Below are positions 22,907 through 37,025 of a stretch of DNA of 64,000 bases, one piece after another. The notes under the pieces were generated by a model. That model was given only the letters and a program-made list of their open reading frames with translations, searched no databases and was not told the origin of the DNA. How positions within the stretch are numbered: the stretch's first letter is position 1; every line of letters starts with the position of its first letter. Where the stretch lies: positions 1,832 through 65,831 of the forward strand of contig CAYXNG010000002.1 in the NCBI GenBank assembly GCA_964466635.1, read 5' to 3'. The stretch is from an uncultured Candidatus Peribacteria bacterium. GTDB taxonomy: Bacteria; Patescibacteriota; Gracilibacteria; Peribacterales; Peribacteraceae. A program made the position numbers and the translations under genes.

Positions 22907-22935
22907 AAAATGGCTCGACGTGGTTCAGGCGGTTC
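22907..22935 (+). repeat. 29-bp exact direct repeat, copy 1 (aaaatggctcgacgtggttcaggcggttc)
   Basis: Identical 29-mer at 30461-30489. Confidence 0.95.
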
Positions 22936-22965
22936 GGATCAACTACGACCTCATGATGGATGTAG

Positions 22966-23430
22966 TCAGAACGTAGTATTCCGAATTTTTTCAGCAAGTT
23001 CAGCTAGATGTTTATCGTCTGCGCGTTTGTAATCATGCGAGGAGATATAACCTTGGTACCTTTCAAAGAAAATATCGACATCAGATTTCATCTGTTGCCA
23101 TTCTTTCATATCCCCAGTCCCATGCATGGGGAAGAGCTTTGTATGAACATGATTTATGCCAAACCCTTCAAAGATCATGCCGGTTCTGCCAACGTCATCG
23201 AATGCTTTATCCAAGAGTTTGCCCACCTTTTTGGATGCAATGACCAAGTCTGAAAGGACATTGTCCGGCAGGTCAAAGGCGTAACTCGAGAAATGCTTCT
23301 TCGGAATGACTACCGAAAAGCCCTCCGTATTCGGGAAAATCGAGAGGAAAGCAATGTGCGAATCATCCTCCCAAATCTTATGGCAAGGGACTTCTCCAGA
23401 GACAATCTTACAGAAGATGCATTCGGACAT
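22966..23430 (-). CDS. HIT (histidine triad) family nucleotide hydrolase/phosphoramidase-like protein
   Basis: CIFCKIVSGEVPCHKIWEDDSHIAFLSIFPNTEGFSVVIPKKH and diverged triad GINHVHTKLFP. Confidence 0.85.
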   Translation of the reverse strand: MSECIFCKIVSGEVPCHKIWEDDSHIAFLSIFPNTEGFSVVIPKKHFSSYAFDLPDNVLSDLVIASKKVGKLLDKAFDDVGRTGMIFEGFGINHVHTKLFPMHGTGDMKEWQQMKSDVDIFFERYQGYISSHDYKRADDKHLAELAEKIRNTTF

Positions 23431-23516
23431 AACTCGATCTTACCATACTTCAAAAGGACTCAGCCGTACTGAATGAAGTTCGAACCAAGTTCTTGGCTTA
23501 GGTTAAATCAAAGATT

Positions 23517-23538
23517 AATGGCTCCCCGACGTGGCTCC
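23517..23538 (+). repeat. Degenerate copy related both to the 29-bp repeat and to the 3' end of tRNA-Asn
   Basis: aatggctccccgacgtggctcc, compared with the repeat aatggctcgacgtggttc and the tRNA-Asn plus-strand tggctcccccgactgg. Confidence 0.5.
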
Positions 23539-23650
23539 TTCTAGAACTCAGGACAGTGTATAGGATGCTCAGGAATATACAGTTACCGTTGCCACTCACA
23601 GCGTAATGTGTAACATTGACATAAGCAATTTATGCTGTTTTAATAGGATT

Positions 23651-24157
23651 ATGAATAGCATAGCAGCCCCAAAGGGTATTCTCATTGAAGGCGTTGAGTG
23701 CGCAGGCAAGACAACCCTGATCAAAGGAATCAGAGACAAAATTGTACCTTGGGATGCCAAGTATCTTGCGCATCAGCCAGGCCAACAGTTCGAACGTTTC
23801 ATGTACGAGTACATGGTTAATAGGAACATTATTTTCAACAGAGGACATTTTAGTGAAGCAATCTATAGCCGACTGTGGGATCGTGAGACGCCTTTCCAGC
23901 CCCATGAATTGCAGGTGCTGAACGATTATGTACGTCGGAATCTGCTGGTGATTTTATGCGATGCAGATACGGATACTTTGGAAAAGCGTTACAGCGAAAG
24001 GAATTATTCCCAGAAAGCAGCTGCGCCTGAACTTGGCAAAATCCGTGATTTGTTCGAGGACCAATTTCAAGGAGTTGAATGTCTGCGGTACACATCGACT
24101 GACCAGCAAAACCTTGAGAAAGTGCTTGAAGAGATTAAGGCAAAAGTCGGTTCCTAA
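23651..24157 (+). CDS. Small P-loop nucleotide/nucleoside-phosphate kinase-like protein
   Basis: Start at MNSIAAPKGILIEGVECAGKTTLIKGIRD (Walker A). About 169 aa. Convergent with the NTP-transferase gene and overlaps it by 4 nt. Confidence 0.6.
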   Translation: MNSIAAPKGILIEGVECAGKTTLIKGIRDKIVPWDAKYLAHQPGQQFERFMYEYMVNRNIIFNRGHFSEAIYSRLWDRETPFQPHELQVLNDYVRRNLLVILCDADTDTLEKRYSERNYSQKAAAPELGKIRDLFEDQFQGVECLRYTSTDQQNLEKVLEEIKAKVGS

Positions 24158-24945
24158 CTTCCAAACAAATCGCAAAACTTACGCATCATACCGTTGCTGA
24201 TCCATTCGTGATAGATACGAAAATCTTCCTCTGTATCCATCTCGATCCAGCCCCTTTGGACTTTAATTGCCTGAACATTCACGCCTTCATCAATCGTGGC
24301 CTGAATCATATCTGTCATATATGCCTGCCTGAAGGACCGTGAATTATACCAACGATCGCTCTTTCCTGATTGTGATTGTTCGTGCTTATCATGCACTTTC
24401 TTAAAGGCCTCCGTCCCGCTTGAGTCAAATTTTAACAATCCGATATAACGTGCATCCATTTCATTTTCTGCAGGTTGTGGTCTGCCTAGTTCAGTGATTT
24501 GTCCTTGCTCATTCAATTGCAGGCTCTCACTATCACTTTGAACGTTCCCCAGCCTCGTTTTCCAGTACTCCTGAAAATTTGTATCGACCGCGACACCGAT
24601 TGAACATTTTGTGTCACGCATACATTCAAGAATTCTCGGCTCGTACACAATATCCGAATAGCAGAGCAGGCAATCTCCCTCAAACTCGGAACGCGCAGCC
24701 ATGAGTGAACCCACCATATTCGTGGTCGCATACTCTGGATTTTCTACATAACGCACATCAGGGTAATTAATCAATTGTCCCATATATCCTCTGACAATCA
24801 CGATGTCATCTACAATCGTGCGAAGGGCTTCCAATTGGTATTCCAATAGAGGTTTACCGTTCAGGGGAACCAAACATTTCGGCTTGTCTTTCGTATGTTC
24901 CCCTAGGCGACTACCCATGCCGGCGGCGAGTACGATGGCTTTCAT
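24154..24945 (-). CDS. Nucleotidyltransferase (sugar-/phospho-substrate cytidylyl/uridylyltransferase fold)
   Basis: MKAIVLAAGMGSRLGEHTKDKPKCLVPLNGKPLLEYQL signature. Confidence 0.8.
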   Translation of the reverse strand: MKAIVLAAGMGSRLGEHTKDKPKCLVPLNGKPLLEYQLEALRTIVDDIVIVRGYMGQLINYPDVRYVENPEYATTNMVGSLMAARSEFEGDCLLCYSDIVYEPRILECMRDTKCSIGVAVDTNFQEYWKTRLGNVQSDSESLQLNEQGQITELGRPQPAENEMDARYIGLLKFDSSGTEAFKKVHDKHEQSQSGKSDRWYNSRSFRQAYMTDMIQATIDEGVNVQAIKVQRGWIEMDTEEDFRIYHEWISNGMMRKFCDLFGS

Positions 24946-25622
24946 TTGTGAGTGAAGTGAGCAATGACACGATGGAGAAGATCTGCATGCGCATTAACAA
25001 AACCAGCATCTGAGCATTTGCGTTCCGGATGCCACATTAATCCAAGAATTGGTAATTTTGTATGCTCGACTGCTTCGATCGCCCCATCATTTGTCACTGC
25101 GCTTCCTATGAGCTCTTTGCCAAGAGTTTTTATACCCAAGCCATGAAAGGAGTTCACAGTCATTTGTTTCTGATTTCCAAGCAACGACCGCAGTAATTCA
25201 GAGGTGAACTGAATTTCATGATCAACAGCTACATGGCTTTTCGGAGAGGCTACTTCAGCGCATGTTCCTTCATAATATGTATTGATGAATTGTAATCCTC
25301 TGCAAATACCTAGAACTGGCTTTCCATCTTCTATGGCGGTGCGCAGAAGCTTCCACTCTGAACGGTCGCGATCAGCACGTGGATCGTCCGAAGTATCGGA
25401 CTCTGATTTTAGAATAATATTGTCTCCTCCAGAGAGGATAAGCATGGCGACATCGCGAATATACTCAGTACAAATTTCAGGTCTGTTGGGGATAAGAACA
25501 GGCTCAAAGCCCTGACGATGTACATAGTCGATAAGATCGTGAGAAAGGGCATCGCGCCACTCGCCATAGTCACTGCCTACCATTCTCATGGAAATGCCGA
25601 TTTTGTTTGGCGATGTACTCAT
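24942..25622 (-). CDS. Class I glutamine amidotransferase-like / peptidase C26 (gamma-glutamyl hydrolase) family protein
   Basis: Nucleophile elbow PVLGICRGLQFIN and LGLMWHPER His motif. Confidence 0.85.
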   Translation of the reverse strand: MSTSPNKIGISMRMVGSDYGEWRDALSHDLIDYVHRQGFEPVLIPNRPEICTEYIRDVAMLILSGGDNIILKSESDTSDDPRADRDRSEWKLLRTAIEDGKPVLGICRGLQFINTYYEGTCAEVASPKSHVAVDHEIQFTSELLRSLLGNQKQMTVNSFHGLGIKTLGKELIGSAVTNDGAIEAVEHTKLPILGLMWHPERKCSDAGFVNAHADLLHRVIAHFTHK

Positions 25623-28036
25623 TGTGATGATCGAATGGAATGATTCGCACAGTCGATTTCTACCAGGGATTGTCCTTTAAGCTGATCGAAGCGTCTACCT
25701 ACTCCAATAGCGGCGGGCAGCCCGAACTCCGCGCAACGAATCGCCATGTGGGATGCAGCTCCTCCATATTTAGTGACAAGTCCTTGGATTTGATGCACGA
25801 ATATCCAGTCATAGCCGGGGTCAGCACTCTCGATGAAAACAATGCGATTCTGTAATTGCTCGTTTGTTTTACCCGCAGTCAAAACTAGTGGACTTCCAAT
25901 GATGTGCTTTTGCGTAATAAAATTTGGCCTGCTTGCAATGAAGCTCACATGCTCGATATCGGAAACATCGGCGATGAGCTCGGGCAAGATGACCAGCTCC
26001 TGCTGTTCATATCTTATGCGTGCGTTGGCACTTGCATTTCTAATGCGACTTATAGCATCAGCATCGGCAGCGCTTCTCATAGACTGAATTGCATTGATGT
26101 CCAAGTAAGATAAATCATCCTTTGTGAGTGAGTGCTGTTGTCCCCATTCGGCAATGAGTTGCAGTGCATCGCTGACATTTTTCGTGAAGAGAAATTTCGC
26201 GTCTTCCCTGCCGACGATGCTCAACTTGGCGAATTCGAGTACATCGTTTACATCCAGTGAAGACCCCGCATTTCTCAAAACAGATTGCATGGCTGCGAGT
26301 TCAGATGCTACCCATTGAAAATCCCTTGCCTCCTCCACATTAGAAGCTATGTCTGATTGAATGGGAGTTGCGGATCCAAAATATAAATCGGTTGCTTCAT
26401 CATAGCGTGGAGATGAGATATCAAAGGTCCCCGGCCTTAAATGCCCATACTTCTGTAGAAATCCCTCAAGCGGCAATTCTCCTTTCCGGACTCGTGTGAG
26501 TTCTTGCCCCATTTGCCCAGCTGCTGTCTCGAATGATTGCAAAAACGCATTATAGGAGGAATCAGAGATGGCACCTTTTGCAACAAAGGATCGAAGCATC
26601 GCATTGCCAACGAATGCCATTCTGGCAATGGCGGAAAAGCCCTTCGTCCCTCTTTTTCTACAATCAGCTACAAGGAATCGAACACATTCCAGCATGTTTT
26701 CCGGTTGTTTCGTTGCAAGTATGGAAGATCTCGCTTTGTCCATTTGAGCCATTTCGGTCATGTAAGACGCGAGATCACCACGACCACCGCGGATTAATGT
26801 CTCGGTGTGTTTGAGTAGGACCCTCCTGACATCAGCGATTTGATGAGGTGACAATCCGGCGGCTTCAAATCGTGGAGTGCAATCGTCGAAAGAAGGAGTG
26901 AAACAATTGGTCGCCACATCAAACTCCACTTTGTCGTGAAGATGTGGTCTTGCCTGGAGGTAATCCAAAGATTCATTGATTATGCGCTCTCTTTGGGAGG
27001 GGCCAATGAGCTTAGGAAGAAGTGAATTGAAACTGTTTCTCACATCCACGTACGGGCGACCTGCTAGGGTGACGAGCAATTTTTCTCCTTCCGGATTGTA
27101 GTAACCAAGCTCTCCTCTCGCTTCTCTCCATGCACTATCCGTAATCAGTGACTCGAACATTGAGAGTGCAAGCGGACGCGGATGACTTCCTACCAATTCT
27201 GCGGGATTCCAGTCCGACATATCACTCAATATTGCCCTGCGTCCTGCGACACCCGCCTTCCGTTCATTGCAGCGGCCAATAGCAATCCTCGTTTCTTCTA
27301 TGACTGACTGAATATTCGACGACTTGAACCGTTCCAGAGCCGCCTTTTGTGCCAAAGGGCGAACCTGAAAAAGGTATAACTGCTGCTTATTGTCGAAAGC
27401 AAATTCGATATCCAAAGCGTTGTTGTCTGCTAGAGACTCAAGTTCTTTGGCACATTCAACCAGCGACGCTAGGCGAGGATCGTTCGGCGGTGCTCCGCCA
27501 TTTCTGTAGATGTAGTGAGTCTGTTGTTCCTCTGAAACTCCACTTGTGATTTTGTCCGTGGCACCAGAATCGTCGTAGTTGATAACGTAGTACGGTGCAC
27601 CGTTTTGTATGTCGCAGGTGAACATGACACCGCAAATTGCAACATCCGTAAGCTGCGGCTGGATTAGAACCTGATGCTTGCCGTCTTTATCTCCGTATGA
27701 TTTCACGACTCGATTGATGGCTTCAAAAATTGCTGATGCATTAGGTCTCTCCACATTGAGTACAGAGTCGAAAGCACCAGCATTCGACGAATCCGCTGTA
27801 TCCTCAGATAAAGCAGAACTGCGAACAATGAGAAGTCCATCACTAAAATGTCTTTGTACATTGCTAACAATATTCGTTGCATACTGCTTCCATTGCTGCA
27901 CCGTAAAGTGGATTTGTGGAAGAATAATCGCGCTTTTCAGGATTGGACGGAGCCTGTCCAGAGTCTCGGCCTTGGTGCCGAGTTCAATGTGCTTTTTGGG
28001 AACATCAGAGCCGATGAGCGGATCTTGCTCAGGCAT
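25619..28036 (-). CDS. PEP-utilising-enzyme family protein (N-terminal PEP/pyruvate-binding ATP-grasp, C-terminal swivelling phosphohistidine domain)
   Basis: 805 aa. N-terminal GTKAETLDRL...IVRSSALSEDT. C-terminal GLVTKYGGAASHMAIRCAEFGLPAAIGVG. Confidence 0.8.
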   Translation of the reverse strand: MPEQDPLIGSDVPKKHIELGTKAETLDRLRPILKSAIILPQIHFTVQQWKQYATNIVSNVQRHFSDGLLIVRSSALSEDTADSSNAGAFDSVLNVERPNASAIFEAINRVVKSYGDKDGKHQVLIQPQLTDVAICGVMFTCDIQNGAPYYVINYDDSGATDKITSGVSEEQQTHYIYRNGGAPPNDPRLASLVECAKELESLADNNALDIEFAFDNKQQLYLFQVRPLAQKAALERFKSSNIQSVIEETRIAIGRCNERKAGVAGRRAILSDMSDWNPAELVGSHPRPLALSMFESLITDSAWREARGELGYYNPEGEKLLVTLAGRPYVDVRNSFNSLLPKLIGPSQRERIINESLDYLQARPHLHDKVEFDVATNCFTPSFDDCTPRFEAAGLSPHQIADVRRVLLKHTETLIRGGRGDLASYMTEMAQMDKARSSILATKQPENMLECVRFLVADCRKRGTKGFSAIARMAFVGNAMLRSFVAKGAISDSSYNAFLQSFETAAGQMGQELTRVRKGELPLEGFLQKYGHLRPGTFDISSPRYDEATDLYFGSATPIQSDIASNVEEARDFQWVASELAAMQSVLRNAGSSLDVNDVLEFAKLSIVGREDAKFLFTKNVSDALQLIAEWGQQHSLTKDDLSYLDINAIQSMRSAADADAISRIRNASANARIRYEQQELVILPELIADVSDIEHVSFIASRPNFITQKHIIGSPLVLTAGKTNEQLQNRIVFIESADPGYDWIFVHQIQGLVTKYGGAASHMAIRCAEFGLPAAIGVGRRFDQLKGQSLVEIDCANHSIRSSQ

Positions 28037-28081: not shown

Positions 28082-28633
28082 TTACTCGCCGTCCTCCACG
28101 ATATATTCCCATCCTGGCCTCCAAGCCTTCGTATGCCTCCAGTCTTCTTCCATAGCCTGCTCCCAAGATTTTCCTTTTAACACCACATCAAGAGCCAGCT
28201 GAGGGCCTTGATGAGCCACTATCGCTATGTGTTTGCCCTTATAGGCTTTCTTTATGAATTCGATAAAATCTGCAATTCTTCGCTCGATATCTTTGTAGCT
28301 CTCGCCGCCCGGAAAAGGCTGATCTATGTAATTTGTGAGATTCTGCTTAAAGTCGTCAGCGGGTTTTTGCGTGAAATCCCCGTAGTTTGCCTCACGCAAT
28401 CTTTCATCAACAACTATCGGACAGCGACCTTCAAAAGCAAGATGGGCAGAATCAATGGCTCTTTGAAGGTCAGAGCAAAAAACAACATCGAATTTTTGTG
28501 GTGCCTGAGTGCCAAGCTCCTTTGCCTGTTTTTTCCCTAACTCGGACAACTCGCCATGAGCCCATCCCGTAGCGAGATCCTGCTCGTTATCCGTTGTCGT
28601 GCCGTGGACGAAATACGTGATTTTCAGAGGCAT
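28082..28633 (-). CDS. Histidine phosphatase (phosphoglycerate-mutase-like) superfamily protein
   Basis: Start at MPLKITYFVHGTTTDNE. VVFCSDLQRAIDSA and IVAHQGPQLAL motifs. Confidence 0.7.
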   Translation of the reverse strand: MPLKITYFVHGTTTDNEQDLATGWAHGELSELGKKQAKELGTQAPQKFDVVFCSDLQRAIDSAHLAFEGRCPIVVDERLREANYGDFTQKPADDFKQNLTNYIDQPFPGGESYKDIERRIADFIEFIKKAYKGKHIAIVAHQGPQLALDVVLKGKSWEQAMEEDWRHTKAWRPGWEYIVEDGE

Positions 28634-30489: not shown

Positions 30490-30615
30490 AGAGCCATTAT
30501 GATTTGATGTCGCAGTTGTATACATAGCTTCTAAGCGCTCAAATTGCCTTTTAAGATAAATATTTGGTTCTATACTTCAGTTCATGTCAGTTTTTAAATT
30601 TAAAGCTCAAATTGC

Positions 30616-33045
30616 ATGGTAAATGTGATTCAGCTGACTGCTGGCTCTATAGCATCACGTCCATGGAAGAAGAGGCCAGGCTTTGATCGTAACCGTGTTG
30701 TAGAGCCAGGGGACTATGGTTTTCAAGCCGGCAATTTAAATGCTTGTTTTAGCAGATTTAAAAATCAAAGCGAATTGGTAAGGGAAGGAATTAATCGTTA
30801 TTTGGAAATTCAACTATTCCCTGAACCTCAAGAACTTAAGGAAGATTATTTCAGGTATCTGGGTGAGCAGTATGCTTTGACCCTTAAGAAAATTGAGAGT
30901 GCCGGGATGCATTCAAGGGCACATTTTCAAATTGAAAATCTAGACTTGCTTCTCAGAAATCTAGAGCAAGTAATACGCGAATTTGAGGGTTATTCTCAGG
31001 AGCAAATTGCTGCTACAGATTTCACAGCAGGCCGTATTAAATTATGGCGCTACTTTCAGCTAAGCACGAGTCAGACAAAAAATCGTGTAGAACCTGTTGA
31101 AGATTTTGATGCACTCAGGTTGAAAGTGGATTTTATAGAAAGCGCCCCAGACTTTAGTAGTGTTGTTTCAGCTGCGGCTATCTCCTCAGGCATTGATGCG
31201 ACTCTTTATCCAAACGGCATCATTAGCATAAAACAAATACGAGAGAATGGGGCACGTAGAGTAGCCGATTTTGCTGAACGCCTTTCACAATATGACAAAA
31301 TACATTTCATAAAATTGGATGATTTTGTTTCAACAATTGAATCTCCTCTTCAGGGTGGGCGATTGGAAGAACGAGAATATGTAATACAGAGAATTGCCCC
31401 AGACGCTCCTGTGGTTGCTGTTATAGATACTGGTGTGCAGAGTCACATTTTGACAAATAGCTTCCTGACAGATGATGGATTGGATTATAGATCGGGTGTT
31501 AGCGATCCCAGAATTGCTGCCCCTTTTGTAGATAACGTTGGCCATGGAACTGCTGTCGCAGCAGAAATTGCTTATGGCAAAAGTATTGAAGAATATCTAA
31601 TTGCCAAGAATGAGGAATATCTCATTCCACTGGTAAAAATTTTTCCAGTGCGGATAGCTGATACAACAAAGAATTTTACTGTGCCTTACGATAAGATTTT
31701 CGACATTAATGGACACTTTGCAGAAGCTGTAAGACGTTACAATATCAAGCTTGTAAATATTAGTTTCGCAAGCACTCAACAAAAATCATTTGAAGAAGAA
31801 AAAATCTCTGAGGCTGCAAACTTAATGGATAGATTTGCCAAGGAACTAGGTGTTACATTTATAGTTTGCGTTGGAAATATTGATTTTGGGAAGCTCGAAA
31901 GTTTAATAGCAGCAGATAGTAGTTTTCTGTTTTTTCAGAGACCCAATGGCTATGGGGAGCCAACTGCTAATCCTCTTTTTAAATGCATAAATATAGGTGC
32001 GCCTTCTGATTTACTCTCAGGAGTGGTGGTTGGCAGTTGTTATCCGCAAAAGTCTAAGTTTGTTGTATCCACATTCAATCGATCTTATTCATTTGATAGT
32101 GTTCGTAATGGGTATTCAAAGCCAGATGTGTTGGCAATTGGCGGAGGGGATGCACCAGTTGATTTAGAATCTTTGCCAGCGCGTGTCTGCAACTCCAGTC
32201 AACGGGTAAGTGTTTTATCGCAGCACGAATCTTTTTTAGCACAGCAAATTGGTACAAGTTTTTCAACTCCAAGGGTTACCAGAGCACTCGCCATCGCTAT
32301 AATCAAATATCCTGACATCTCTCCCGAAACTTTGAAGTGTCTTTTTCTTCATAAAGCCAGCAACTACATGGCTCCAGATAAAAAATATGGCATGAATTTT
32401 GGAACAGTAAATTTACAAAGACGCTCAATAGAATTTGCAGATATTTATAAAGGATTTGGCAGCTTGACCGAGGTTAATGAGTCTGATTTTTTTGAAGATT
32501 CTGAGGATGAAATTTCTTTCATCATCGAGGGCGCTGTACCAGCTGAAAAGATGATCTCTTATCGAGTACCTTTGGCTGCAATGTTAGGTGACGGCACAAC
32601 GGCCAGAACCAACAAAATGGAACTTAAGCTTTCAATTTGTACACTTCCCCGGAGTACTAGAACTGGTGAGGTATCTTTAAAATCAGCAAATCCCTTTCAT
32701 GTGGCAGCATTCATGCACGTTAATAGTTTGGTTCCTACTCGCACAATGATTTTTGCGGGTAGGCAATATCGCGATCAGTGCATACGTAGCAATACTCCAG
32801 GTATAATACTTGGTTGGACCAGTGATTATCAGGTGCGCCATTTTCCAACATTTTCTATACAATCGAAAATGTATAGGAAGGATAAGTTGGCAGCACTGTT
32901 AGGAAGTGGAGATTCGGCGACAATTACCGTAAGAGGTCTTTCAGAATCTGCTGCGCAGACTACCGCTAAGTTTGCGATAGTCTTTTCAGTCAAAGACCTT
33001 GGTGCAACAGGCGAAATTAGGAACCGTATCAGAATCAACGTATAA
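30616..33045 (+). CDS. S8 (subtilisin-like) serine peptidase with unknown N-terminal (~265 aa) and C-terminal (~220 aa) domains
   Basis: Catalytic triad motifs VVAVIDTGV (Asp), DNVGHGTAVAAEI (His), GTSFSTPRVTRALA (Ser), and oxyanion Asn in VCVGNID. No signal peptide. Confidence 0.9.
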   Translation: MVNVIQLTAGSIASRPWKKRPGFDRNRVVEPGDYGFQAGNLNACFSRFKNQSELVREGINRYLEIQLFPEPQELKEDYFRYLGEQYALTLKKIESAGMHSRAHFQIENLDLLLRNLEQVIREFEGYSQEQIAATDFTAGRIKLWRYFQLSTSQTKNRVEPVEDFDALRLKVDFIESAPDFSSVVSAAAISSGIDATLYPNGIISIKQIRENGARRVADFAERLSQYDKIHFIKLDDFVSTIESPLQGGRLEEREYVIQRIAPDAPVVAVIDTGVQSHILTNSFLTDDGLDYRSGVSDPRIAAPFVDNVGHGTAVAAEIAYGKSIEEYLIAKNEEYLIPLVKIFPVRIADTTKNFTVPYDKIFDINGHFAEAVRRYNIKLVNISFASTQQKSFEEEKISEAANLMDRFAKELGVTFIVCVGNIDFGKLESLIAADSSFLFFQRPNGYGEPTANPLFKCINIGAPSDLLSGVVVGSCYPQKSKFVVSTFNRSYSFDSVRNGYSKPDVLAIGGGDAPVDLESLPARVCNSSQRVSVLSQHESFLAQQIGTSFSTPRVTRALAIAIIKYPDISPETLKCLFLHKASNYMAPDKKYGMNFGTVNLQRRSIEFADIYKGFGSLTEVNESDFFEDSEDEISFIIEGAVPAEKMISYRVPLAAMLGDGTTARTNKMELKLSICTLPRSTRTGEVSLKSANPFHVAAFMHVNSLVPTRTMIFAGRQYRDQCIRSNTPGIILGWTSDYQVRHFPTFSIQSKMYRKDKLAALLGSGDSATITVRGLSESAAQTTAKFAIVFSVKDLGATGEIRNRIRINV

Positions 33046-33053: not shown

Positions 33054-33941
33054 ATGAAGGCAATGGTTCTACAGAAAAAATCATCATCCAATGGCAGCTA
33101 TTACGATAGTCTTCAATCATTGTTGGGTAATGAGAAGAAACTGGAAACATTTAAGTCGCAGGGAAAAGAGCAAGATTTGTTCGTTAGTGATAGAGCATAT
33201 GAAATAATTAATTCTAAGGTTAAATTCCAAGATGTCGTCCAAACACCTTCATTGAAAAGTGACTTCACAAATTTAATAAATGAATTTTTGCACAAGGAAA
33301 CTTTGAAAAGTTACGGAATAAATGCCGACAATAAAATTATCTTCTTCGGTCCATCTGGCTGTGGCAAAACGATGTCAGCAATGGCTCTTGCTAACAAGTT
33401 AAATAAAAAGCTTTTTCTCGTAAATTTAGCCACCATTGTAGACAGTAGCTTAGGTAAAACTAGTAGTAACGTTGCCGAAATAGTAGCGGAGGCTGCGTCT
33501 CAGAATGGTATTATTTTCTTTGATGAATTTGATGCTTTGGCCAAAATGAGAAGCGATGAGAATGACCACGGTGAGATGAAGAGAGTGGCTAGCTCGATTA
33601 TTCAGATTTTGGATTTCCTGAATGAAGATTCAGTATTCATTGCTGCAACTAATCATATTGATTTGATTGATAAGGCTATCTTACGAAGGTTTGGTAAAAA
33701 GATTTCATTTGATATGCCAACGCCTAAGTTGCTTGAAATCTATATTGAAAAAATCATCAAACCAACCAACTTGAAAATGTCAAAATCAGTCATGAAGGCC
33801 ATTGCAACTGAACTACAAGGCTTATCGTTTGCTGAGGCCAGAGATGCTTTCTTGGCGAAATTAAAAAGATACTTGATTGCTAAAAGTAAGAATAATAAGG
33901 CATCTCTAAAAAGTATTTCATCTGACATTTTGAAAGTCTGA
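33054..33941 (+). CDS. Classical AAA+ ATPase
   Basis: Walker A FFGPSGCGKT, Walker B IIFFDEFDAL, sensor-1 FIAATNH, Arg finger region KAILRRF. Starts 8 nt after the S8 gene stop. Confidence 0.9.
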   Translation: MKAMVLQKKSSSNGSYYDSLQSLLGNEKKLETFKSQGKEQDLFVSDRAYEIINSKVKFQDVVQTPSLKSDFTNLINEFLHKETLKSYGINADNKIIFFGPSGCGKTMSAMALANKLNKKLFLVNLATIVDSSLGKTSSNVAEIVAEAASQNGIIFFDEFDALAKMRSDENDHGEMKRVASSIIQILDFLNEDSVFIAATNHIDLIDKAILRRFGKKISFDMPTPKLLEIYIEKIIKPTNLKMSKSVMKAIATELQGLSFAEARDAFLAKLKRYLIAKSKNNKASLKSISSDILKV

Positions 33942-34183
33942 AGTCATGCACACAAAGTGCTAGATATTGTCTGAAAAACCAATTAGGAGTATTTTAGAAG
34001 TGCACCAGTAGATCTATCGGTATGGACGGCGCGTATTGCGCTGCCTTCAAGAGAGCCTCGAAAGGGGCGCTGACTCCGTCAGCTTTCTCTGAAGGTTCGT
34101 CCTGATGGGTCTGCTGGTGCGCGGAGCAACAGCGCCCCTTTAGTGCGTCTGGACTCCAGGAATTACTTCCTTCTCCAATTTCT

Positions 34184-34561
34184 ATGTCCAATTCAACAGT
34201 TGGTAAGTTGAAAAAATGCCCTCACTGCGCCGAGGAAATCCTCGCTGATGCGAAGAAATGTAAACACTGCGGAGAATTTCTCGACGGCAATTATCCCGCT
34301 GGCCATGGAAGAGGCCCTGTACGTTCATGGAGTCCCGGCGTGGCTGCCGTGCTTAGCGTCTTCGTTCCAGGGTTGGGGCAGATCTACAAAGGAGACATTG
34401 CTATTGGCATTGTAATCTTCATTGTCACCGCGATCGGCTATGTCGTTTTCATTCTTCCGGGCCTCCTCATTCACATTTACGCTGTCAGTACTGCTTACTC
34501 CAAGCCAGCTCCCGGTGACAGGAAGCCAACTCATCCAACTAGAGGGCTTACCTCTTCGTGA
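34184..34561 (+). CDS. Zinc-ribbon plus TM2-type small membrane protein
   Basis: KCPHCAEEILADAKKCKHCGEF followed by VAAVLSVFVPGLGQIYKGDIAIGIVIFIVTAIGYV. Confidence 0.65.
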   Translation: MSNSTVGKLKKCPHCAEEILADAKKCKHCGEFLDGNYPAGHGRGPVRSWSPGVAAVLSVFVPGLGQIYKGDIAIGIVIFIVTAIGYVVFILPGLLIHIYAVSTAYSKPAPGDRKPTHPTRGLTSS

Positions 34562-34808: not shown

Positions 34809-35024
34809 GTGCCCGCACATTCCTCAGTACCGGCTCCCGATAAAAAAGGCTGCATCAGCTTCAATCCTCTGTTACTGACGGATAAGGACGTACTGGAGTT
34901 CCAGCAGCTCTTCCAAAGGGAAACAGGAATCCTCATTAGCGAGGAAGAGGCACGCACATATGCGGAAAAACTTATACATATTGCAGAAATTTTTGTTTCT
35001 ATTTCCTCTAATAATCATGACTAG
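34809..35024 (+). CDS. Small hypothetical protein (non-ATG start)
   Basis: 71-codon ORF starting at GTG. Its stop overlaps the start of the next small ORF (ATGACTAG). Confidence 0.3.
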   Translation: MPAHSSVPAPDKKGCISFNPLLLTDKDVLEFQQLFQRETGILISEEEARTYAEKLIHIAEIFVSISSNNHD

Positions 35025-35232
35025 TATGGCGCAACCTTTTAACCAAGGACCAGAAATTCATTACTTCTCTAAAGTGATCGATCTTGCAAAGGATGATCGC
35101 AATACATGGTCATTCACACCGGACAACGAAATACCATCATTTGAAGTAGTGATGCGTATTCTCGAATGCGAGGCTGAACAGGCATGGGTTTGGATGGAGG
35201 AGCGGGGACTCAGGCATGAGTTGGAGGATTAA
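35017..35232 (+). CDS. Small hypothetical protein
   Basis: 71 aa from MTSMAQPF. Translationally coupled to the previous ORF and lies just upstream of the recombinase. Confidence 0.35.
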   Translation: MTSMAQPFNQGPEIHYFSKVIDLAKDDRNTWSFTPDNEIPSFEVVMRILECEAEQAWVWMEERGLRHELED

Positions 35233-35323
35233 CTTTTTTTGAAATAGACAGACCGTGCATCTGCTGCATTCTATGCATTTCACACATGTGTTTCTCAATA
35301 TCTTCCAGACCATTTTCTCCTCA

Positions 35324-35332
35324 TGTTAGAAT
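35324..35332 (+). promoter_or_regulatory. Possible extended -10 promoter (TGtTAGAAT) for the recombinase gene
   Basis: catgttagaatataag lies 29 nt upstream of the ATG at 35361. Confidence 0.35.
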
Positions 35333-35360
35333 ATAAGTTTTTCTCTTCCACAAGACTACA

Positions 35361-36980
35361 ATGAAGTATTTCCTCTACTGCCGAAAGTCATCTGATCGCG
35401 ATGATAAACAGGTGCTGAGCATTGAAGCTCAGCAGAGAAAGATGCTTGAAATAGCTGAGAAATTGCATCTTGAAATAGTTGCTGTTTTCCTTGAGCAGAA
35501 GTCTGCTTATAAAACAGGAAGACCGCAGTTCAATGAGATGATGGATAGACTTGAGAAAGGAGAGGCAGATGCCATTCTCACGTATCACCTCACGCGCCTA
35601 GCGCGTAATAGCTTTGATGGCGGAAGAATCGTCTATGCCTTGGACGATAAAGTCATCAAGGAAATTCGGACAGAGGACAGTGTTTTCACCAACATCTCTG
35701 ATGAAAAGTTCATCATGAATATTCACTTTGCGATGTCGAAGAAAAGCTCAGACGACACCAGTCAGTTTGTCCGGCGTGATATCGAAACCAAATTGAAGAA
35801 AGGAGAGTTTCCCGGAGTCGCACCACTTGGTTATCTAAATATCGATAAAAGAGGAACGATAGCCGGACGGCATTATTCGCAGGAGCGACAGAAGATGCTA
35901 TTTGATCTGAACCGACCGCTCAGGCGTGAGGAGATCGACCCGATTAACGGGCCAATTGTGAAGAAGATATTTGAAGAGGCAAGCAAGGGCGTGAAGTCGC
36001 TGAAAGCATTGCGTGAATTGAGTTGGGAACTGGGTCTACGTTCCAAGAACGGTAACAAGCTGCCTGAGGCGACGGTATATGCCATTCTCACCAATCCGTA
36101 CTACTACGGAGTGATCCGCATGAACGGAAAGATCTACGCAGAGAATATTCAGCATGAACCTCTCATTAGTAAACAACTTTTTGATCGAGTGTTACAGCTG
36201 TTACATCAACGTGGCAAAGGCGGAGGTGGCGCACAGCGTCATTTCTTCCCCTACACGGGTCTCTTCAAATGTGGCGAATGCGGCTGTGGTATTACGGCGG
36301 AAATACAAAAGGGACATATTTACTATCACTGCACTCACCGAAAGGGATACTGTAGCCAGCGAACGTGGATATCAGAAGAAAATATGGAGGAACAAATTCG
36401 AGGAGTAATCGACAGGCTTGTAATTCCTGCATCATTCGTAGAGTTTGCATTTAAGAAGCTCAAAGATTCGCACAAAATAGAGGCACAGGTGCAGAACACT
36501 GCGCGTGCGAATACAGAGAGAAGATATGGTCAGCTGAAAGCGAAGTTAGATGCCCTCTTGGAACTAAAGCTATCTCCCAATAATACGAAAGGGGAGCTGC
36601 TGAACGATCAGGAATACATGGACCGTAAGTCAACGATCCAGAATGAAATGCACGAACTGGAACAGCAACGGGAATCATTCAAGAAGCAAGCTGACACTTG
36701 GTTGCAAGACTGCGAGAACTTCATCTCCTTCACACAGGAGTTAGGGCAAAGATACGGCATGGTCAGTTTAGAACGTAAGAAGGAGTTGATGTTCCTGCTT
36801 TGTTCGAAAGGTACCGTAACCAACGGTTCTTTGGCTTTCTCTTACCGAGAGCCGTTCGCGACACTCGCTGAATTCCCCTTAGCCGGTAAAGGCCGGTTCG
36901 AACCGCCTTCGTCGCTTTCTGAAAAGAAGAAGTCCGATTTGTTTACAAAGTGGCTCCCCCGACTGGATTCGAACCAGTAA
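35361..36980 (+). CDS. Large serine recombinase (resolvase N-domain, recombinase domain, zinc ribbon, coiled coil)
   Basis: YCRKSSDRDDKQVLSIEAQ (catalytic Ser region), LTRLARNSFDG, CGECGCGITAE...YYHCTH zinc ribbon. The last 30 nt overlap tRNA-Asn on the opposite strand. Confidence 0.9.
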   Translation: MKYFLYCRKSSDRDDKQVLSIEAQQRKMLEIAEKLHLEIVAVFLEQKSAYKTGRPQFNEMMDRLEKGEADAILTYHLTRLARNSFDGGRIVYALDDKVIKEIRTEDSVFTNISDEKFIMNIHFAMSKKSSDDTSQFVRRDIETKLKKGEFPGVAPLGYLNIDKRGTIAGRHYSQERQKMLFDLNRPLRREEIDPINGPIVKKIFEEASKGVKSLKALRELSWELGLRSKNGNKLPEATVYAILTNPYYYGVIRMNGKIYAENIQHEPLISKQLFDRVLQLLHQRGKGGGGAQRHFFPYTGLFKCGECGCGITAEIQKGHIYYHCTHRKGYCSQRTWISEENMEEQIRGVIDRLVIPASFVEFAFKKLKDSHKIEAQVQNTARANTERRYGQLKAKLDALLELKLSPNNTKGELLNDQEYMDRKSTIQNEMHELEQQRESFKKQADTWLQDCENFISFTQELGQRYGMVSLERKKELMFLLCSKGTVTNGSLAFSYREPFATLAEFPLAGKGRFEPPSSLSEKKKSDLFTKWLPRLDSNQ

Positions 36981-37025
36981 CCCTCTCGTTAACAGCGAGA
37001 TGCTCTACCATTGAGCTACAGGGGA
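36951..37025 (-). tRNA. tRNA-Asn (anticodon GTT), CCA encoded
   Basis: The minus strand reads TCCCCTG TA GCTC AATGGTA GAGC A TCTCG CTGTTAA CGAGA GGGTT ACTGG TTCGAAT CCAGT CGGGGGA G CCA. This gives a full cloverleaf. It begins with U and has discriminator G, as in E. coli tRNA-Asn. Confidence 0.9.

What the first reader, a model, noticed from the sequence alone, without database searches (positions are those of the whole stretch)
22907..37025. About 14-kb composite genomic island at tRNA-Asn
Composition becomes clearly AT-richer immediately after the stop at 22896 and returns to the host level after the tRNA at 36951-37025. The tRNA-proximal end carries a large serine recombinase. The cargo is of accessory type: a nucleotide-phosphoramidate-like pathway, a protease-ATPase pair and small ORFs. 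One internal gene (HD hydrolase, 28730-29368) is GC-rich like the host, which indicates mosaicism. This is the place in the window to look for novel systems.
Basis: partly seen in the sequence, partly recalled or inferred. Interest (0 to 1): 0.7.

Follow-up and report, generated by a model that had tools for sequence, protein, structure and literature searches.

The report
Serine-recombinase cassette array at tRNA-Asn
The 14-kb AT-rich stretch is a real mobile island in a candidate-phylum (Peribacteria) bacterium: three gene cassettes stacked at a tRNA gene by one serine recombinase, carrying a known type of anti-phage system and an uncharacterised variant of a rare nitrogen-phosphorus (phosphoramidate) nucleotide pathway.

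Summary
Window 22911-36950 has GC 0.447 against 0.544 for the host. It is bounded by tRNA-Asn(GTT) and by a 49-nt direct repeat (22907-22955 / 30461-30509).

This repeat and a third, diverged site at 23519 split the island into three cassettes:
- a HIT-hydrolase mini-cassette;
- a 6.9-kb recombinase-less cassette with a seven-gene phosphoramidate-nucleotide module;
- an intact 6.5-kb element with an IetS/IetA-like protease-ATPase pair, a conserved backbone and a large serine recombinase.

Five related elements in other Peribacteria carry the same TGGCTCGACGTGGTTCAGG end motif (≤4 mismatches); three of them sit at tRNA-Asn. Their cargo differs but is mostly recognisable defence: canonical IetAS, Lamassu and methyltransferase-based sets. 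One relative (80% flank identity) has an unoccupied tRNA-Asn.

The architecture works like staphylococcal SCC composite islands. The attachment site appears to lie inside the recombinase reading frame, so integration swaps the protein's C-terminal tail.

The phosphoramidate module keeps the Campylobacter Cj1418/1417/1416-type core. The APS-type kinase, methyltransferases and glycan genes are replaced by a dNK-like kinase, an HD hydrolase, a histidine phosphatase and a sulfotransferase-fold protein. Its product and target are unknown.

Verdict: a new variant of known kinds, of moderate interest.

The parts
22897..22973 (+). attL-type site ('siteA'). It comprises a host-side arm directly after the SLH-gene stop, the core TGGCTC (22911-22916), and an element-side P' arm.
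   Evidence: Copy 1 of the 49-nt direct repeat 22907-22955. The first 29 nt are identical to 30461-30489. The same P' motif lies at the distal end of 5 related elements.
22966..23430 (-). HIT-family hydrolase, the only gene of the distal 608-bp mini-cassette.
   Evidence: Pfam HIT 2.6e-09. Weak HinT / purine nucleoside phosphoramidase hits, below cutoff. GC 0.437. Not found next to the module in L008 or L096.
23479..23563 (+). Internal att-like site ('siteB'). It comprises a relic of a recombinase 3' end, the core TGGCTC (23519), and a diverged P'-like arm.
   Evidence: The left flank aligns with the distal flanks of L003, L006 (two copies) and L091, and with the 3' ends of active recombinase genes apart from a 14-nt deletion. 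GTCGGGGAGCCAT matches the tRNA-Asn 3' end of L001.
23651..24157 (+). P-loop kinase of the deoxynucleoside-kinase / TMP-kinase-like type (longest ORF starts at 23606).
   Evidence: Best PDB match is YorR, E 0.001. Only the P-loop aligns to the APS-kinase-type proteins of distant loci. Orthologues lie in L008 (66%), L096 (95%) and L097 (53%) beside the same core genes.
24154..24945 (-). Nucleotidyltransferase (Cj1416-like, NTP_transf_3).
   Evidence: Pfam 1.4e-17. Follows GlnK-GATase in fixed order in most of the 78 distant loci; the NTP-transferase ORF cluster is present in 70 and the GATase cluster in 69.
24942..25622 (-). Class-I glutamine amidotransferase-type hydrolase (Cj1417-like).
   Evidence: Pfam Peptidase_C26 8e-34. 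Best NCBIfam model is NF045546, gamma-glutamyl-CDP-amidate hydrolase, at 108.7 bits, below the cutoff of 250.
25619..28036 (-). L-glutamine kinase family protein (Cj1418-like).
   Evidence: NCBIfam NF004508 at 842.8 bits, above the cutoff of 501. Sources name homologues 'glutamine kinase'.
28082..28633 (-). Histidine phosphatase (branch 1), a subfamily with VHG in place of RHG (longest ORF extends to 28684).
   Evidence: Pfam His_Phos_1 2.4e-30. Conserved next to HD and GlnK in L008, L084 and L096.
28730..29368 (-). HD-domain phosphohydrolase (TIGR00295-like); GC-rich.
   Evidence: Weak HD / TIGR00295 / DVU_1551 hits. Best PDB match is the OxsA-like 1xx7, E 0.012. 64-78% identical in L097, L084 and L008. 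The family is small: 22 clusters at E<=1e-30, some fused to PEP-utilizers, MazG, Sua5, TsaE or HAD.
29535..30362 (+). Sulfotransferase-fold protein; candidate transferase of the module.
   Evidence: Pfam Sulfotransfer_3 2.9e-10. AF2 model with pLDDT 85.7. All top Foldseek hits are PAP(S)-binding sulfotransferases, TM 0.4-0.55. The GRSGST and RDP motifs and KETIG are conserved. Only 7 homologues were found. It is linked to the module in L008 despite a different position.
30452..30527 (+). Internal attP-like site ('siteC'). It comprises a short P-side remnant (cgTACAAAA), the core TGGCTC (30465), and a P' arm.
   Evidence: Copy 2 of the 49-nt repeat. It shares TACAAA[A/G]TGGCTC with the junction at the tRNA.
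30616..33045 (+). IetS-like S8 subtilase.
   Evidence: PADLOC IetS 1.4e-21. Pfam Peptidase_S8 1.6e-26. Motifs IDTG (270), HGT (310) and GTSFS (546) are present.
33054..33941 (+). IetA-like AAA+ ATPase.
   Evidence: PADLOC IetA 1.4e-61. NCBIfam IteA 179.5 bits, below the cutoff of 510. Walker A GPSGCGKT and Walker B FFDEFD are present.
33998..34176 (+). Candidate structured RNA in the element backbone, upstream of the Zn-ribbon gene.
   Evidence: Conserved in L003 and L006. RNAalifold predicts 52 pairs, 9 with compensatory double changes. No Rfam match. No further copies in 16 sources.
34184..34561 (+). Zn-ribbon plus transmembrane protein; backbone gene.
   Evidence: Pfam zinc-ribbon hits. Homologues occupy the same position in L003, L006, L007, L091 and L092.
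34809..35232 (+). Two overlapping small backbone ORFs (34809-35024 and 34960-35232).
   Evidence: The first is similar to L003_44 and L007_77. The C-terminus of the second is similar to L006_82. No Pfam hit for 34960-35232; 34809-35024 was not scanned. Function unknown.
35361..36980 (+). Large serine recombinase. The ORF crosses the junction and stops inside the tRNA gene.
   Evidence: Pfam Resolvase, Recombinase and Zn_ribbon_recom. 64-83% identical homologues lie at the same position in relatives. Tail analysis.
36920..36975 (+). attR-type junction: recombinase 3' end (P arm), the core TGGCTC (36951), and the tRNA body (B' arm).
   Evidence: The junction ...TTTACAAA[G/A]|TGGCTCCCCCGACTGG is conserved in L003, L004, L005 and L091, with TTTATAAAA in L006.
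36951..37025 (-). tRNA-Asn(GTT), the integration target.
   Evidence: ARAGORN. Rfam 72.3 bits.

Best explanation
Window 22911-36950 is a tandem array of three cassettes. They were laid down one after another at the 3' end of tRNA-Asn(GTT) by large serine recombinases of a family common in Peribacteria and other candidate-phyla-radiation bacteria.

How the array formed. Each incoming circular element recombines its attP with the tRNA-proximal site. attP has the form ...TACAAA|TGGCTC|GACGTGGTTCAGG... and lies within the last codons of the recombinase gene. Each integration pushes older cassettes away from the tRNA, and the older cassettes then lose their recombinase genes.

The three cassettes.
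- Youngest (30465-36950): complete. It has a conserved backbone (structured RNA candidate, Zn-ribbon membrane protein, small ORFs, recombinase) and one cargo slot holding an IetS/IetA-like protease-ATPase anti-phage pair.
- Middle (23519-30464): no recombinase. It could move only in trans, as ccr-less SCC cassettes do.
- Distal (22911-23518): holds only a HIT hydrolase.

The middle cassette's cargo.
- Shown by homology: it makes a nucleoside diphosphoramidate through glutamine kinase, then nucleotidyltransferase, then amidohydrolase.
- Inferred: the dNK-like kinase further activates the product, or recycles nucleotide. The sulfotransferase-fold enzyme transfers the phosphoramidate group from a PAPS-like donor to an unknown acceptor. 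The HD and histidine phosphatases clear nucleotide by-products.
- My best guess for the biological role is modification of a cell-surface or other phage-relevant target.

The confidence of 0.8 applies to the island and cassette-array mechanism. For the inferred chemistry of the middle cassette I put about 0.35.
For: Composition and boundaries.

Sites within the window. A 49-nt direct repeat has its first 29 nt identical, and its two copies lie exactly at the left edge and 7.55 kb further in. TACAAA[A/G]TGGCTC is shared by the internal site and the tRNA junction.

Related elements. The motif TGGCTCGACGTGGTTCAGG (≤4 mismatches) lies at the distal end of five independent related elements: L003, L006 (two copies), L007, L091 and L092. 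The distance from that site to the tRNA is 6.8-8.7 kb in L003, L006 and L091, close to the 6.5 kb of cassette 3. The recombinases are 64-83% identical. In L003, L006 and L091 they sit next to tRNA-Asn and the DCC1-like gene, with different cargo. That cargo is IetAS, Lamassu, or MTase with HNH.

Unoccupied site. L001 has tRNA-Asn with no P' motif and no recombinase.

Accretion. The left flanks of the distal sites are recombinase 3'-end relics.

attP inside the ORF. The P' arms continue the recombinase ORF in frame and encode the conserved peptide WLDVVQAVR.NYDL, with some synonymous differences. Real homologues end in WL(D/G)(V/I/L)LD(G/A/K)IRT.

Module 2. GlnK scores above the NCBIfam cutoff. 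The GlnK-GATase-NTP transferase order is conserved in most of the 78 distant loci. The full gene set recurs in L008 and L096. It recurs partly in L084, in the cargo slot of a serine-recombinase element at tRNA-Arg, and in L097, next to a PADLOC candidate defence gene. The sulfotransferase fold and nucleotide-binding motifs are supported.

Precedent. In staphylococci, Ccr recombinases excise tandem defence cassettes that lack ccr (PMC11470126).
Against: No excised circle or same-species empty site was observed, so the crossover position and current activity are inferred from sequence only.

Serine integrases normally recombine attP only with attB. Repeated insertion next to an older cassette requires that the hybrid P-O-B' site is accepted.

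The right end of cassette 2 keeps only about 10-25 nt resembling a recombinase end, and siteB is diverged. Cassettes 1 and 2 may therefore no longer be mobilisable.

L007 and L092 are not next to an intact tRNA.

For module 2:
- the kinase is not the Cj1415 (APS-kinase) type;
- no acceptor-related gene is present;
- the sulfotransferase-fold gene is missing from L097;
- the defence role rests on neighbourhood alone.

The IetS/IetA-like proteins score well below the NCBIfam equivalog cutoffs, and their gene order is inverted.
Confidence: 0.8

Rival explanations
1. The island is one 14-kb element that arrived in a single event. The internal sites at 23519 and 30465 are pseudo-att sequences or internal duplications, not cassette boundaries.
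For: All three parts are AT-rich relative to the host. Only one recombinase gene is present. In SCC systems, linked cassettes can move together (PMC11470126).
Against: Related elements measure 6.8-8.7 kb from P' site to tRNA and carry one cargo system each, which matches cassette 3 alone. Three compositions differ: cassette 2 has GC 0.470, the cassette 3 cargo 0.391, and the cassette 3 backbone 0.463. The siteB flank is a recombinase-gene relic, which implies a former second recombinase gene. Module 2 occurs elsewhere without cassette 3 (L008, L096, L084).
Confidence: 0.1
2. The region is a fossil, a hypervariable hotspot downstream of tRNA-Asn. Its cassettes are fixed and no longer mobile, and its recombinase is inactive or has been repurposed.
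For: No excision evidence could be obtained. Every genome examined has different genes downstream of tRNA-Asn, including the relative without an element. The older cassette ends are decayed.
Against: The recombinase ORF is full length with all three domains. 64-83% identical recombinases carry entirely different cargo at the same site, which requires recent turnover. The att motifs are conserved to within 4 mismatches over 19 nt across genomes.
Confidence: 0.12
3. The segment is a degraded prophage or phage satellite.
For: Large serine recombinases are common phage integrases, and tRNA genes are common prophage sites (general knowledge). L008 has an S24 repressor-like peptidase and ParB-methyltransferases near the module.
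Against: No capsid, terminase, tail or replication genes were found in the window island or in any of the six related elements. The att motif is absent from 2.9 million viral contigs. Only 22-25% identical recombinases occur there. GlnK has a single phage-collection hit, and HD has none.
Confidence: 0.03
4. For cassette 2 only: the module is an ordinary glycan-decoration pathway like the Campylobacter O-methyl phosphoramidate (MeOPN) capsule modification. It is carried passively and is not a distinct system.
For: The core triad is the MeOPN core. In 76 distant loci it sits among glycosyltransferases, epimerases, aminotransferases, methyltransferases and APS kinase. Borg elements carry it in surface-decoration regions (10.1101/2024.11.05.622173). 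MeOPN affects phage susceptibility in C. jejuni (title and abstract of PMC3417653).
Against: The window, L008 and L097 versions have no glycan, methyltransferase, APS-kinase or sulfatase-family genes nearby. They have instead a dNK-like kinase and a specific HD hydrolase that the glycan-type loci lack. Their neighbours are defence-type or mobile-element genes.
Confidence: 0.3

Closest known systems
Staphylococcal cassette chromosome (SCC/SCCmec) composite islands with tandem defence cassettes
   Same: Large serine recombinase(s). Insertion at the 3' end of one conserved housekeeping gene. Several att repeats delimit cassettes. Some cassettes lack a recombinase. Cargo is rich in anti-phage systems. 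No transfer genes (PMC11470126; window).
   Different: The target is tRNA-Asn, not rlmH. There is a single recombinase rather than CcrAB. The host is a candidate-phyla-radiation bacterium. The cassettes are much smaller (0.6-8.7 kb). attP appears to lie inside the recombinase ORF. Orthology to ccr was not tested, and excision has not been shown.
Classical tRNA-linked genomic or defence islands with tyrosine integrases
   Same: Foreign composition, tRNA 3'-end target, integrase at one end, variable defence cargo, and accretion of older remnants.
   Different: No long duplication of the tRNA 3' end is present: the best direct match is 9-12 nt. The recombinase is of the serine type. The repeat is the element's own P' arm, not tRNA sequence.
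IetAS (Iet/Ite) anti-phage system (AAA+ ATPase IetA plus S8 protease IetS)
   Same: An adjacent AAA+ ATPase and an S8 subtilase with catalytic motifs. PADLOC IetA 1.4e-61 and IetS 1.4e-21. A canonical IetAS occupies the same cargo slot in relative L007.
   Different: The gene order is S then A. The scores are far below the NCBIfam equivalog cutoffs (179.5 against 510, and 49.7 against 900). IetA is only 33-34% identical to the L007 copy, and IetS gave no BLAST match to the L007 copy.
Campylobacter jejuni O-methyl phosphoramidate pathway (Cj1418 glutamine kinase, Cj1416 cytidylyltransferase, Cj1417 hydrolase, Cj1415 3'-kinase)
   Same: A glutamine kinase family member scoring above cutoff, followed by a C26 amidohydrolase and an NTP_transf_3 enzyme in the widely conserved order.
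   Different: No APS-kinase-type Cj1415, no methyltransferases and no glycan genes. Added instead are a dNK-like kinase, an HD hydrolase, a VHG-type histidine phosphatase and a sulfotransferase-fold protein. The module sits on a mobile cassette.
PAPS-dependent sulfotransferases
   Same: The fold (Foldseek probability 1.0 to TPST, 3-OST, SULT and CurM ST) and motifs equivalent to the 5'-phosphosulfate and 3'-phosphate binding loops.
   Different: TM-scores are only 0.4-0.55 and identity is 10-17%. No PAPS synthesis genes are in the cassette. The protein is genetically linked to a phosphoramidate-donor pathway, so the group transferred may be phosphoramidate. That is inference.
Integration-dependent gene remodelling in temperate mycobacteriophages (attP inside the repressor gene; recalled from my own knowledge, not checked here)
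   Same: attP lies within a coding region, so integration changes the C-terminus of the encoded protein.
   Different: Here the affected gene is the serine recombinase itself. The new tail (PRLDSNQ*) is supplied by the antisense strand of the tRNA. The functional consequence is unknown.

Membership tests
tRNA-associated genomic island | Composition deviates from the host | tested here: met
   GC 0.447 against 0.544, p = 5e-8. Tetranucleotide distance 0.404 against a host maximum of 0.089.
tRNA-associated genomic island | Site-specific recombinase gene at one end, adjacent to a tRNA gene | tested here: met
   Large serine recombinase at 35361-36980 overlaps tRNA-Asn at 36951-37025.
tRNA-associated genomic island | Flanking or delimiting repeats (att sites) | tested here: met
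   49-nt repeat at 22907 and 30461, with a shared core at the tRNA junction.
tRNA-associated genomic island | Absent from, or different in, related genomes | tested here: met
   L001 has an unoccupied site. L003, L006 and L091 have other cargo. No same-species empty site was available.
Large serine recombinase (integrase type) | N-terminal resolvase catalytic domain, recombinase domain and zinc-ribbon domain | tested here: met
   PF00239 1.3e-18, PF07508 9.7e-13, PF13408 1.7e-07. The N-terminal sequence YCRKSS is present.
SCC-like composite cassette array | Several att copies delimit cassettes, at least one of which lacks a recombinase | tested here: met
   Sites at 22911, 23519, 30465 and 36951. 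Cassettes 1 and 2 have no recombinase.
SCC-like composite cassette array | Recombinase-driven excision of individual and linked cassettes | not testable with these tools
   Needs reads from the source sample, or an experiment.
SCC-like composite cassette array | Ccr-family recombinase and the rlmH (orfX) target | tested here: not met
   The target is tRNA-Asn. Orthology to Ccr was not examined. I therefore file this as 'works like', not as a member.
IetAS defence system | IetA-type AAA+ ATPase | tested here: inconclusive
   PADLOC IetA 1.4e-61, but NCBIfam IteA 179.5 bits against a cutoff of 510.
IetAS defence system | IetS-type S8 protease adjacent to the ATPase | tested here: inconclusive
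   PADLOC IetS 1.4e-21, but NCBIfam IteS 49.7 bits against a cutoff of 900. The genes are adjacent (8-nt gap) but in inverted order.
IetAS defence system | Protection against phage | not testable with these tools
   Needs an experiment.
MeOPN / cytidine diphosphoramidate pathway (Cj1415-Cj1418) | Cj1418-type L-glutamine kinase | tested here: met
   NF004508 at 842.8 bits, above the cutoff of 501.
MeOPN / cytidine diphosphoramidate pathway (Cj1415-Cj1418) | Cj1417-type gamma-glutamyl-CDP-amidate hydrolase | tested here: inconclusive
   NF045546 is the best model, but at 108.7 bits, below the cutoff of 250. The position after GlnK is conserved.
MeOPN / cytidine diphosphoramidate pathway (Cj1415-Cj1418) | Cj1416-type nucleotidyltransferase | tested here: inconclusive
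   NTP_transf_3 1.4e-17. Its position is conserved in most of the 78 distant loci. No specific model was available.
MeOPN / cytidine diphosphoramidate pathway (Cj1415-Cj1418) | Cj1415-type (APS-kinase fold) 3'-kinase | tested here: not met
   The kinase here aligns to APS-kinase-type proteins over only 20 P-loop residues. It is dNK/YorR-like.
MeOPN / cytidine diphosphoramidate pathway (Cj1415-Cj1418) | Methyltransferases and a glycan-biosynthesis context | tested here: not met
   None in the window, L008 or L097. They are present in the distant loci.
PAPS-type sulfotransferase | Sulfotransferase fold with 5'-PSB and 3'-PB motifs | tested here: met
PAPS-type sulfotransferase | Uses PAPS and transfers sulfate | not testable with these tools
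   Needs biochemistry. The genetic linkage suggests a different donor.

The most novel reading that the evidence does not exclude
The compact module is a previously undescribed conflict (anti-phage) or target-modification system. Its core is glutamine kinase, amidohydrolase, nucleotidyltransferase, a dNK-like kinase and an HD hydrolase. The candidate-phyla-radiation versions add a histidine phosphatase and a sulfotransferase-fold enzyme.

It would build a PAPS-like activated phosphoramidate nucleotide. It would then either transfer the P-N group to a macromolecular or small-molecule acceptor through a sulfotransferase-fold 'phosphoramidyl transferase', or release a phosphoramidate nucleotide analogue.

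The module travels as cargo of serine-recombinase cassettes whose cargo slots otherwise hold mostly recognisable defence systems.
Probability: 0.25. Interest if true: 0.8.

Novelty: new variant of a known kind. Interest (0 to 1): 0.55.

Why it matters
Candidate-phyla-radiation bacteria have tiny genomes and few recognised defence systems or mobile elements. This locus shows a compact, definable vehicle: a 3-kb backbone with one cargo slot, a fixed att motif and a tRNA-Asn target. In this lineage it swaps IetAS, Lamassu and methyltransferase-based systems in and out, and it stacks cassettes as SCC elements do in staphylococci.

That gives three practical handles.
- A searchable signature (the recombinase plus TGGCTCGACGTGGTTCAGG) for mining cargo slots in uncultivated bacteria for new defence systems.
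- A small serine integrase with predicted attP and attB sites. Its attP lies inside its own reading frame, which suggests a built-in switch between the integrated and excised states.
- A self-contained phosphoramidate-nucleotide module with a sulfotransferase-fold partner. If confirmed, this would be the first sulfotransferase-like enzyme tied to P-N group transfer, and it would extend phosphoramidate biology beyond the Campylobacter capsule.

Tried and rejected
- Exact-sequence look-ups of two window proteins found nothing on record.
- I looked for a long duplication of the tRNA 3' end, as tyrosine-integrase islands have. Only 9-12-nt chance-level matches turned up, so that model was rejected.
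- The att motif is absent from viral contigs. Close recombinase relatives are also absent there.
- Rfam found only tRNA and tmRNA at gathering threshold. It found nothing credible for the backbone RNA at a permissive threshold. A covariance model found no further copies in 16 sources.
- I tested whether the P-loop kinase is the Cj1415/APS-kinase type. Only the P-loop aligns, so this was rejected.
- Sequence search of the sulfotransferase-like protein against PDB was not significant. Fold comparison was needed.
- I checked whether HIT belongs to the phosphoramidate module. It is separated from the module by siteB and is absent from L008 and L096, so I treated it as a separate cassette. A functional link remains possible.
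- GlnK, HD and the kinase gave one or no matches in phage and plasmid collections.
- The literature search found no paper linking a sulfotransferase to phosphoramidate transfer. The Raushel Cj1415 paper (PMC5938747) was not held.
- L007 and L092 do not end at an intact tRNA. I did not resolve their right junctions.

Full report
**1. Observation**

A sliding GC profile shows a sharp drop just after the stop codon at 22896. GC is 0.575 at 22400-22799 and 0.445 at 22800-23199. It returns to host level just past the tRNA, from 0.487 at 36600-36999 to 0.557 at 37000-37399.

Over 22907-36950 the GC is 0.447, against 0.544 for the rest of the window. One-kb windows differ with Mann-Whitney p = 5e-8. 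The tetranucleotide distance to the host is 0.404, while host 14-kb chunks reach at most 0.089.

ARAGORN and Rfam place tRNA-Asn(GTT) at 36951-37025 on the minus strand, with its 3' end facing the island.

- HIT hydrolase;
- P-loop kinase;
- NTP_transf_3 nucleotidyltransferase;
- C26 amidotransferase-type hydrolase;
- an 805-aa PPDK_N/PEP-utilizers protein that scores 842.8 bits on NCBIfam NF004508 (cutoff 501), the Cj1418 glutamine-kinase family;
- histidine phosphatase;
- HD hydrolase (GC 0.604, GC3 0.78);
- Sulfotransfer_3 protein;
- S8 subtilase and AAA ATPase;
- a Zn-ribbon protein;
- a 539-aa large serine recombinase.

**2. Host and comparative frame**

The flanking DCC1-like protein found two loci at 80% identity in Candidatus Peribacteraceae MAGs (lineage).

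In L001, synteny with the window runs from window ~49900 down to the tRNA. Then come 7.2 kb of unrelated ordinary genes (glyoxalase, VIT1, PNPOx-like, Big_13, SLH). Synteny resumes at window ~19585. L001 has no recombinase and no element-type sequence after the tRNA, so it is an unoccupied site in a relative.

The left flank is itself variable. The SLH/beta-propeller gene (20521-22896) and a 278-aa ORF are not at this place in L001. The hypervariable zone may therefore start near 19600, although the att-defined island starts at 22911.

**3. Internal anatomy: att sites**

No long copy of the tRNA 3' end exists in the window. This argues against the tyrosine-integrase pattern.

Repeat finding gave instead a 49-nt direct repeat at 22907-22955 and 30461-30509. 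It is 84% identical overall, and the first 29 nt are identical: AAAATGGCTCGACGTGGTTCAGGCGGTTC.

The sites line up as follows:
- The internal copy and the tRNA junction share TACAAA[A/G]TGGCTC on the left.
- The two repeat copies share everything to the right of TGGCTC.

This is the pattern expected for attL (B-O-P'), an attP-like hybrid (P-O-P') and attR (P-O-B'). The crossover would fall within or next to TGGCTC, which is the complement of the tRNA's terminal GAGCCA.

A third, diverged site lies at 23519 (TGGCTCCCCGACGTGGCTCC).

**4. The same sites in relatives**

Homologues of the recombinase are numerous in Peribacteria, Peregrinibacteria and other Patescibacteria. I fetched contigs for six of them, at 56-83% identity.

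L003, L006 and L091 carry the recombinase at the identical position, next to tRNA-Asn and the DCC1-like gene. Their junction sequence is the same, ...TTTACAAAA|TGGCTCCCCCGACTGG (TTTATAAAA in L006).

Every element of 64% identity or more carries TGGCTC(G/A)ACGTGGTT(C/A)A at its far end:
- L003 at 2867;
- L006 at 3103 and 3704;
- L007 at 4701;
- L091 at 4731;
- L092 at 3142.

In L003, L006 and L091 the element spans 6.8-8.7 kb from this site to the tRNA. Window cassette 3 spans 6.5 kb.

The sequence immediately left of the distal site aligns across window siteB, L003, both L006 copies and L091. It also aligns with the 3' ends of the active recombinase genes, apart from a 14-nt deletion. This sequence is therefore a relic of an older recombinase gene. 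I take that as direct evidence for successive insertions at the tRNA-proximal side, followed by decay of the older recombinase.

**5. Element backbone and cargo slot**

The following are conserved between the window and its relatives:
- the Zn-ribbon/TM protein, in L003, L006, L007, L091 and L092;
- a small ORF (window 34809-35024, similar to L003_44 and L007_77);
- part of a second small ORF (34960-35232);
- the recombinase.

The cargo between the P' end and the backbone differs in every element:

| Element | Cargo |
|---|---|
| Window | IetS/IetA-like pair |
| L007 | Canonical IetAS (IetA 2e-148, IetS 9e-290) |
| L091 | Lamassu LmuA/LmuC/LmuB |
| L003 | Type II methyltransferase, HNH/PtuB-like protein, HATPase protein |
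| L006 | C5 methyltransferase with unknown genes, plus a 600-bp mini-cassette that by inspection looks like a GNAT acetyltransferase gene (not scanned) |
| L092 | LmuB-like SMC protein plus helicase |

No element has phage structural or conjugation genes. The att motif and close recombinase relatives are absent from IMG/VR.

The family is thus a minimal integrative vehicle whose cargo slot holds mostly recognisable defence systems. The closest working analogue is the staphylococcal SCC composite island. There, Ccr serine recombinases excise tandem cassettes, including ones that lack ccr and carry defence systems (PMC11470126).

**6. attP inside the recombinase ORF**

The recombinase ORF crosses attR and stops inside the tRNA. 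Its last residues...KWLPRLDSNQ*, are encoded antisense to the tRNA. The same holds in L003, L006 and L091.

Joining the ORF to any P' arm keeps the frame. It gives ...KWLDVVQAV(R/Q)(I/S)(N/H)YDLM... followed by a stop after about 20 codons.

Across nine P' arms this peptide is conserved. Some nucleotide differences are synonymous, for example TAC/TAT, GAC/GAT and CTC/TTG between the two window copies.

Database homologues that are not at tRNA-Asn really do end in WL(D/G)(V/I/L)LD(G/A/K)IRT... (P0014, P0022, P0026, P0028, P0030).

I infer that attP lies within the 3' end of the recombinase gene and that integration swaps the C-terminal tail. Whether this controls directionality or stability is unknown.

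**7. Cassette 3 cargo**

The S8 protein has the Asp, His and Ser motifs. The AAA protein has Walker A and Walker B. The PADLOC Iet models match. However, the NCBIfam equivalog cutoffs are missed by a wide margin and the gene order is inverted.

I call the pair IetAS-like. Its mechanism is presumably that of IetAS, which is itself not well understood.

**8. Cassette 2: the phosphoramidate module**

*The common form.* In the metagenome scan, 76 loci with 30-40% identical GlnK have GlnK, the C26 hydrolase and the NTP transferase, nearly always in that order. Their neighbours are sulfatase/phosphodiesterase-family proteins, methyltransferases, APS kinase, glycosyltransferases, epimerases and aminotransferases. 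This is the Campylobacter-like glycan-decoration context. The pathway chemistry is as summarised in PMC6429109 and from my own knowledge of the Raushel work.

*The window form.* It has no glycan, methyltransferase or APS-kinase genes. It has instead:
- a dNK/YorR-like kinase;
- a TIGR00295/OxsA-like HD hydrolase;
- a histidine phosphatase with VHG in place of RHG;
- a sulfotransferase-fold protein.

*Where this gene set recurs.*
- L008 has the full set at 59-78% identity. The sulfotransferase gene sits at the other end of the cluster, and the neighbours are methyltransferases and another serine recombinase.
- L096 is 95% identical in nucleotide sequence.
- L084 has HD, HisPhos and a truncated GlnK in the cargo slot of a serine-recombinase element. 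The recombinase ORF ends inside tRNA-Arg.
- L097 is a 68%-GC bacterium with GlnK, hydrolase, NTP transferase, kinase (53%) and HD (64%), but no sulfotransferase. The cluster sits beside a PADLOC candidate gene (PDC-S39) and a CHAT/TPR protein.

*HD family.* It is small, with 22 clusters at E<=1e-30 among 1.84 billion representatives. Some members are fused to PEP-utilizers, MazG, Sua5, TsaE, HAD or methyltransferase domains. This pattern points to nucleotide chemistry.

*Sulfotransferase-like protein.* It models confidently (pLDDT 85.7). It matches only PAP(S)-binding sulfotransferases, at low TM-scores. It keeps GRSGST, RDP and an invariant KETIG.

*Shown and inferred.* Shown by homology: the module makes a nucleoside diphosphoramidate. 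Inferred: the kinase and the sulfotransferase-fold protein use it as, or convert it to, a PAPS-like donor for phosphoramidate transfer, and the HD and HisPhos enzymes recycle nucleotide by-products. The nearby HIT hydrolase may do the same, but it is in a separate cassette.

*Role.* The acceptor is unknown. Surface modification that affects phage adsorption is the most conservative role, by analogy with C. jejuni (PMC3417653). A soluble nucleotide-analogue defence is the more novel alternative.

**9. The HD gene and mosaicism**

The HD gene is GC-rich in the window, and relatively so in L008. It is the best-conserved protein of the module, including in the 68%-GC L097.

It is therefore an integral module gene with a probable high-GC ancestry, not a host gene. 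The island's mosaicism is real, but the att sites are what prove it.

**10. Verdict**

The finding is a genuine composite island. Its mechanism is well supported by comparative sequence evidence, though not by direct observation of excision.

In kind it is known: a genomic or defence island, with SCC-like accretion. The following are new variants:
- the candidate-phyla-radiation host;
- the compact backbone;
- the attP-in-ORF arrangement;
- the structured RNA candidate;
- the non-glycan phosphoramidate module with a sulfotransferase-fold partner.

Noticed in passing
window 33998-34176 (+); also L003 8294-8484 and L006 8268-8451: A ~180-nt conserved non-coding stretch lies between the cargo and the Zn-ribbon gene. 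It folds into a 19-bp closing stem with a multi-branch core and a 3' hairpin. Nine of 52 pairs show compensatory changes among three sequences. There is no Rfam family. Relatives L091 and L092 have a divergent HTH regulator gene at this position instead.
   Followed up: partly
window 36890-36980, with the P' arms at 22911-22973 and 30465-30527: The recombinase ORF runs across the att junction. The integrated form ends in PRLDSNQ*, read antisense from the tRNA. The excised form would end in DVVQAVR.NYDL..., a tail conserved across nine P' arms and present in real homologues. Many database homologues end in ...DSNQ or DSNPRP, which suggests tRNA-integrated copies are common.
   Followed up: partly
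L006 3103-3703: A 600-bp mini-cassette lies between two att copies. Its single ORF looks like a GNAT acetyltransferase by eye; it was not scanned. It parallels the window's 608-bp HIT mini-cassette. Single-gene cassettes flanked by recombination sites recall integron cassettes.
   Followed up: partly
window 19617-22906: An SLH/beta-propeller/SH3 surface protein gene (20521-22896) and a 278-aa ORF with no Pfam hit (19625-20461) are missing at this place in relative L001, which has other SLH and Big_13 genes there. GC is 0.508, intermediate. This may be an older layer of the same hotspot.
   Followed up: partly
L094 10001-11635 and 19993-21618: Two large serine recombinase genes lie 8 kb apart on one contig (56% and 25% identical to the window's). 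A Mutator-type transposase and a DUF3631 protein are nearby. This may be another tandem arrangement.
   Followed up: no
L092 19020-20521: A CBASS-like pair (SMODS/CD-NTase plus a Cap15-type effector) lies 7 kb beyond the recombinase element, next to a copper-resistance cluster. A radical SAM, AAA_28 and NUDIX trio lies just outside the element's distal site.
   Followed up: no
window 28082-28633; L008, L084, L096: The module's histidine phosphatase has a conserved VHG motif where the family normally has RHG. The HIT protein has HVHTK instead of the usual HxHxH. Both may have altered chemistry.
   Followed up: no
proteins P0250, P0267, P0273, P0274, P0325: Members of the module's HD family occur fused to a PEP-utilizers mobile domain, MazG, Sua5/YrdC, TsaE, HAD and methyltransferase domains. 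These are Rosetta-stone hints that the HD acts on activated nucleotides.
   Followed up: partly
window 57091-57485 (-): A tmRNA gene with an unusually long predicted tag, AKRNFLGARFQSPAFVPALTFA.
   Followed up: no
L007 11600-11750 and L092 11600-11713: These two elements do not end at an intact tRNA. The L007 recombinase tail begins WLPRL, like the tRNA-integrated forms, and both continue with homologous tails (FLVRTI(I/V)DAC...). This suggests an alternative or rearranged target site.
   Followed up: no
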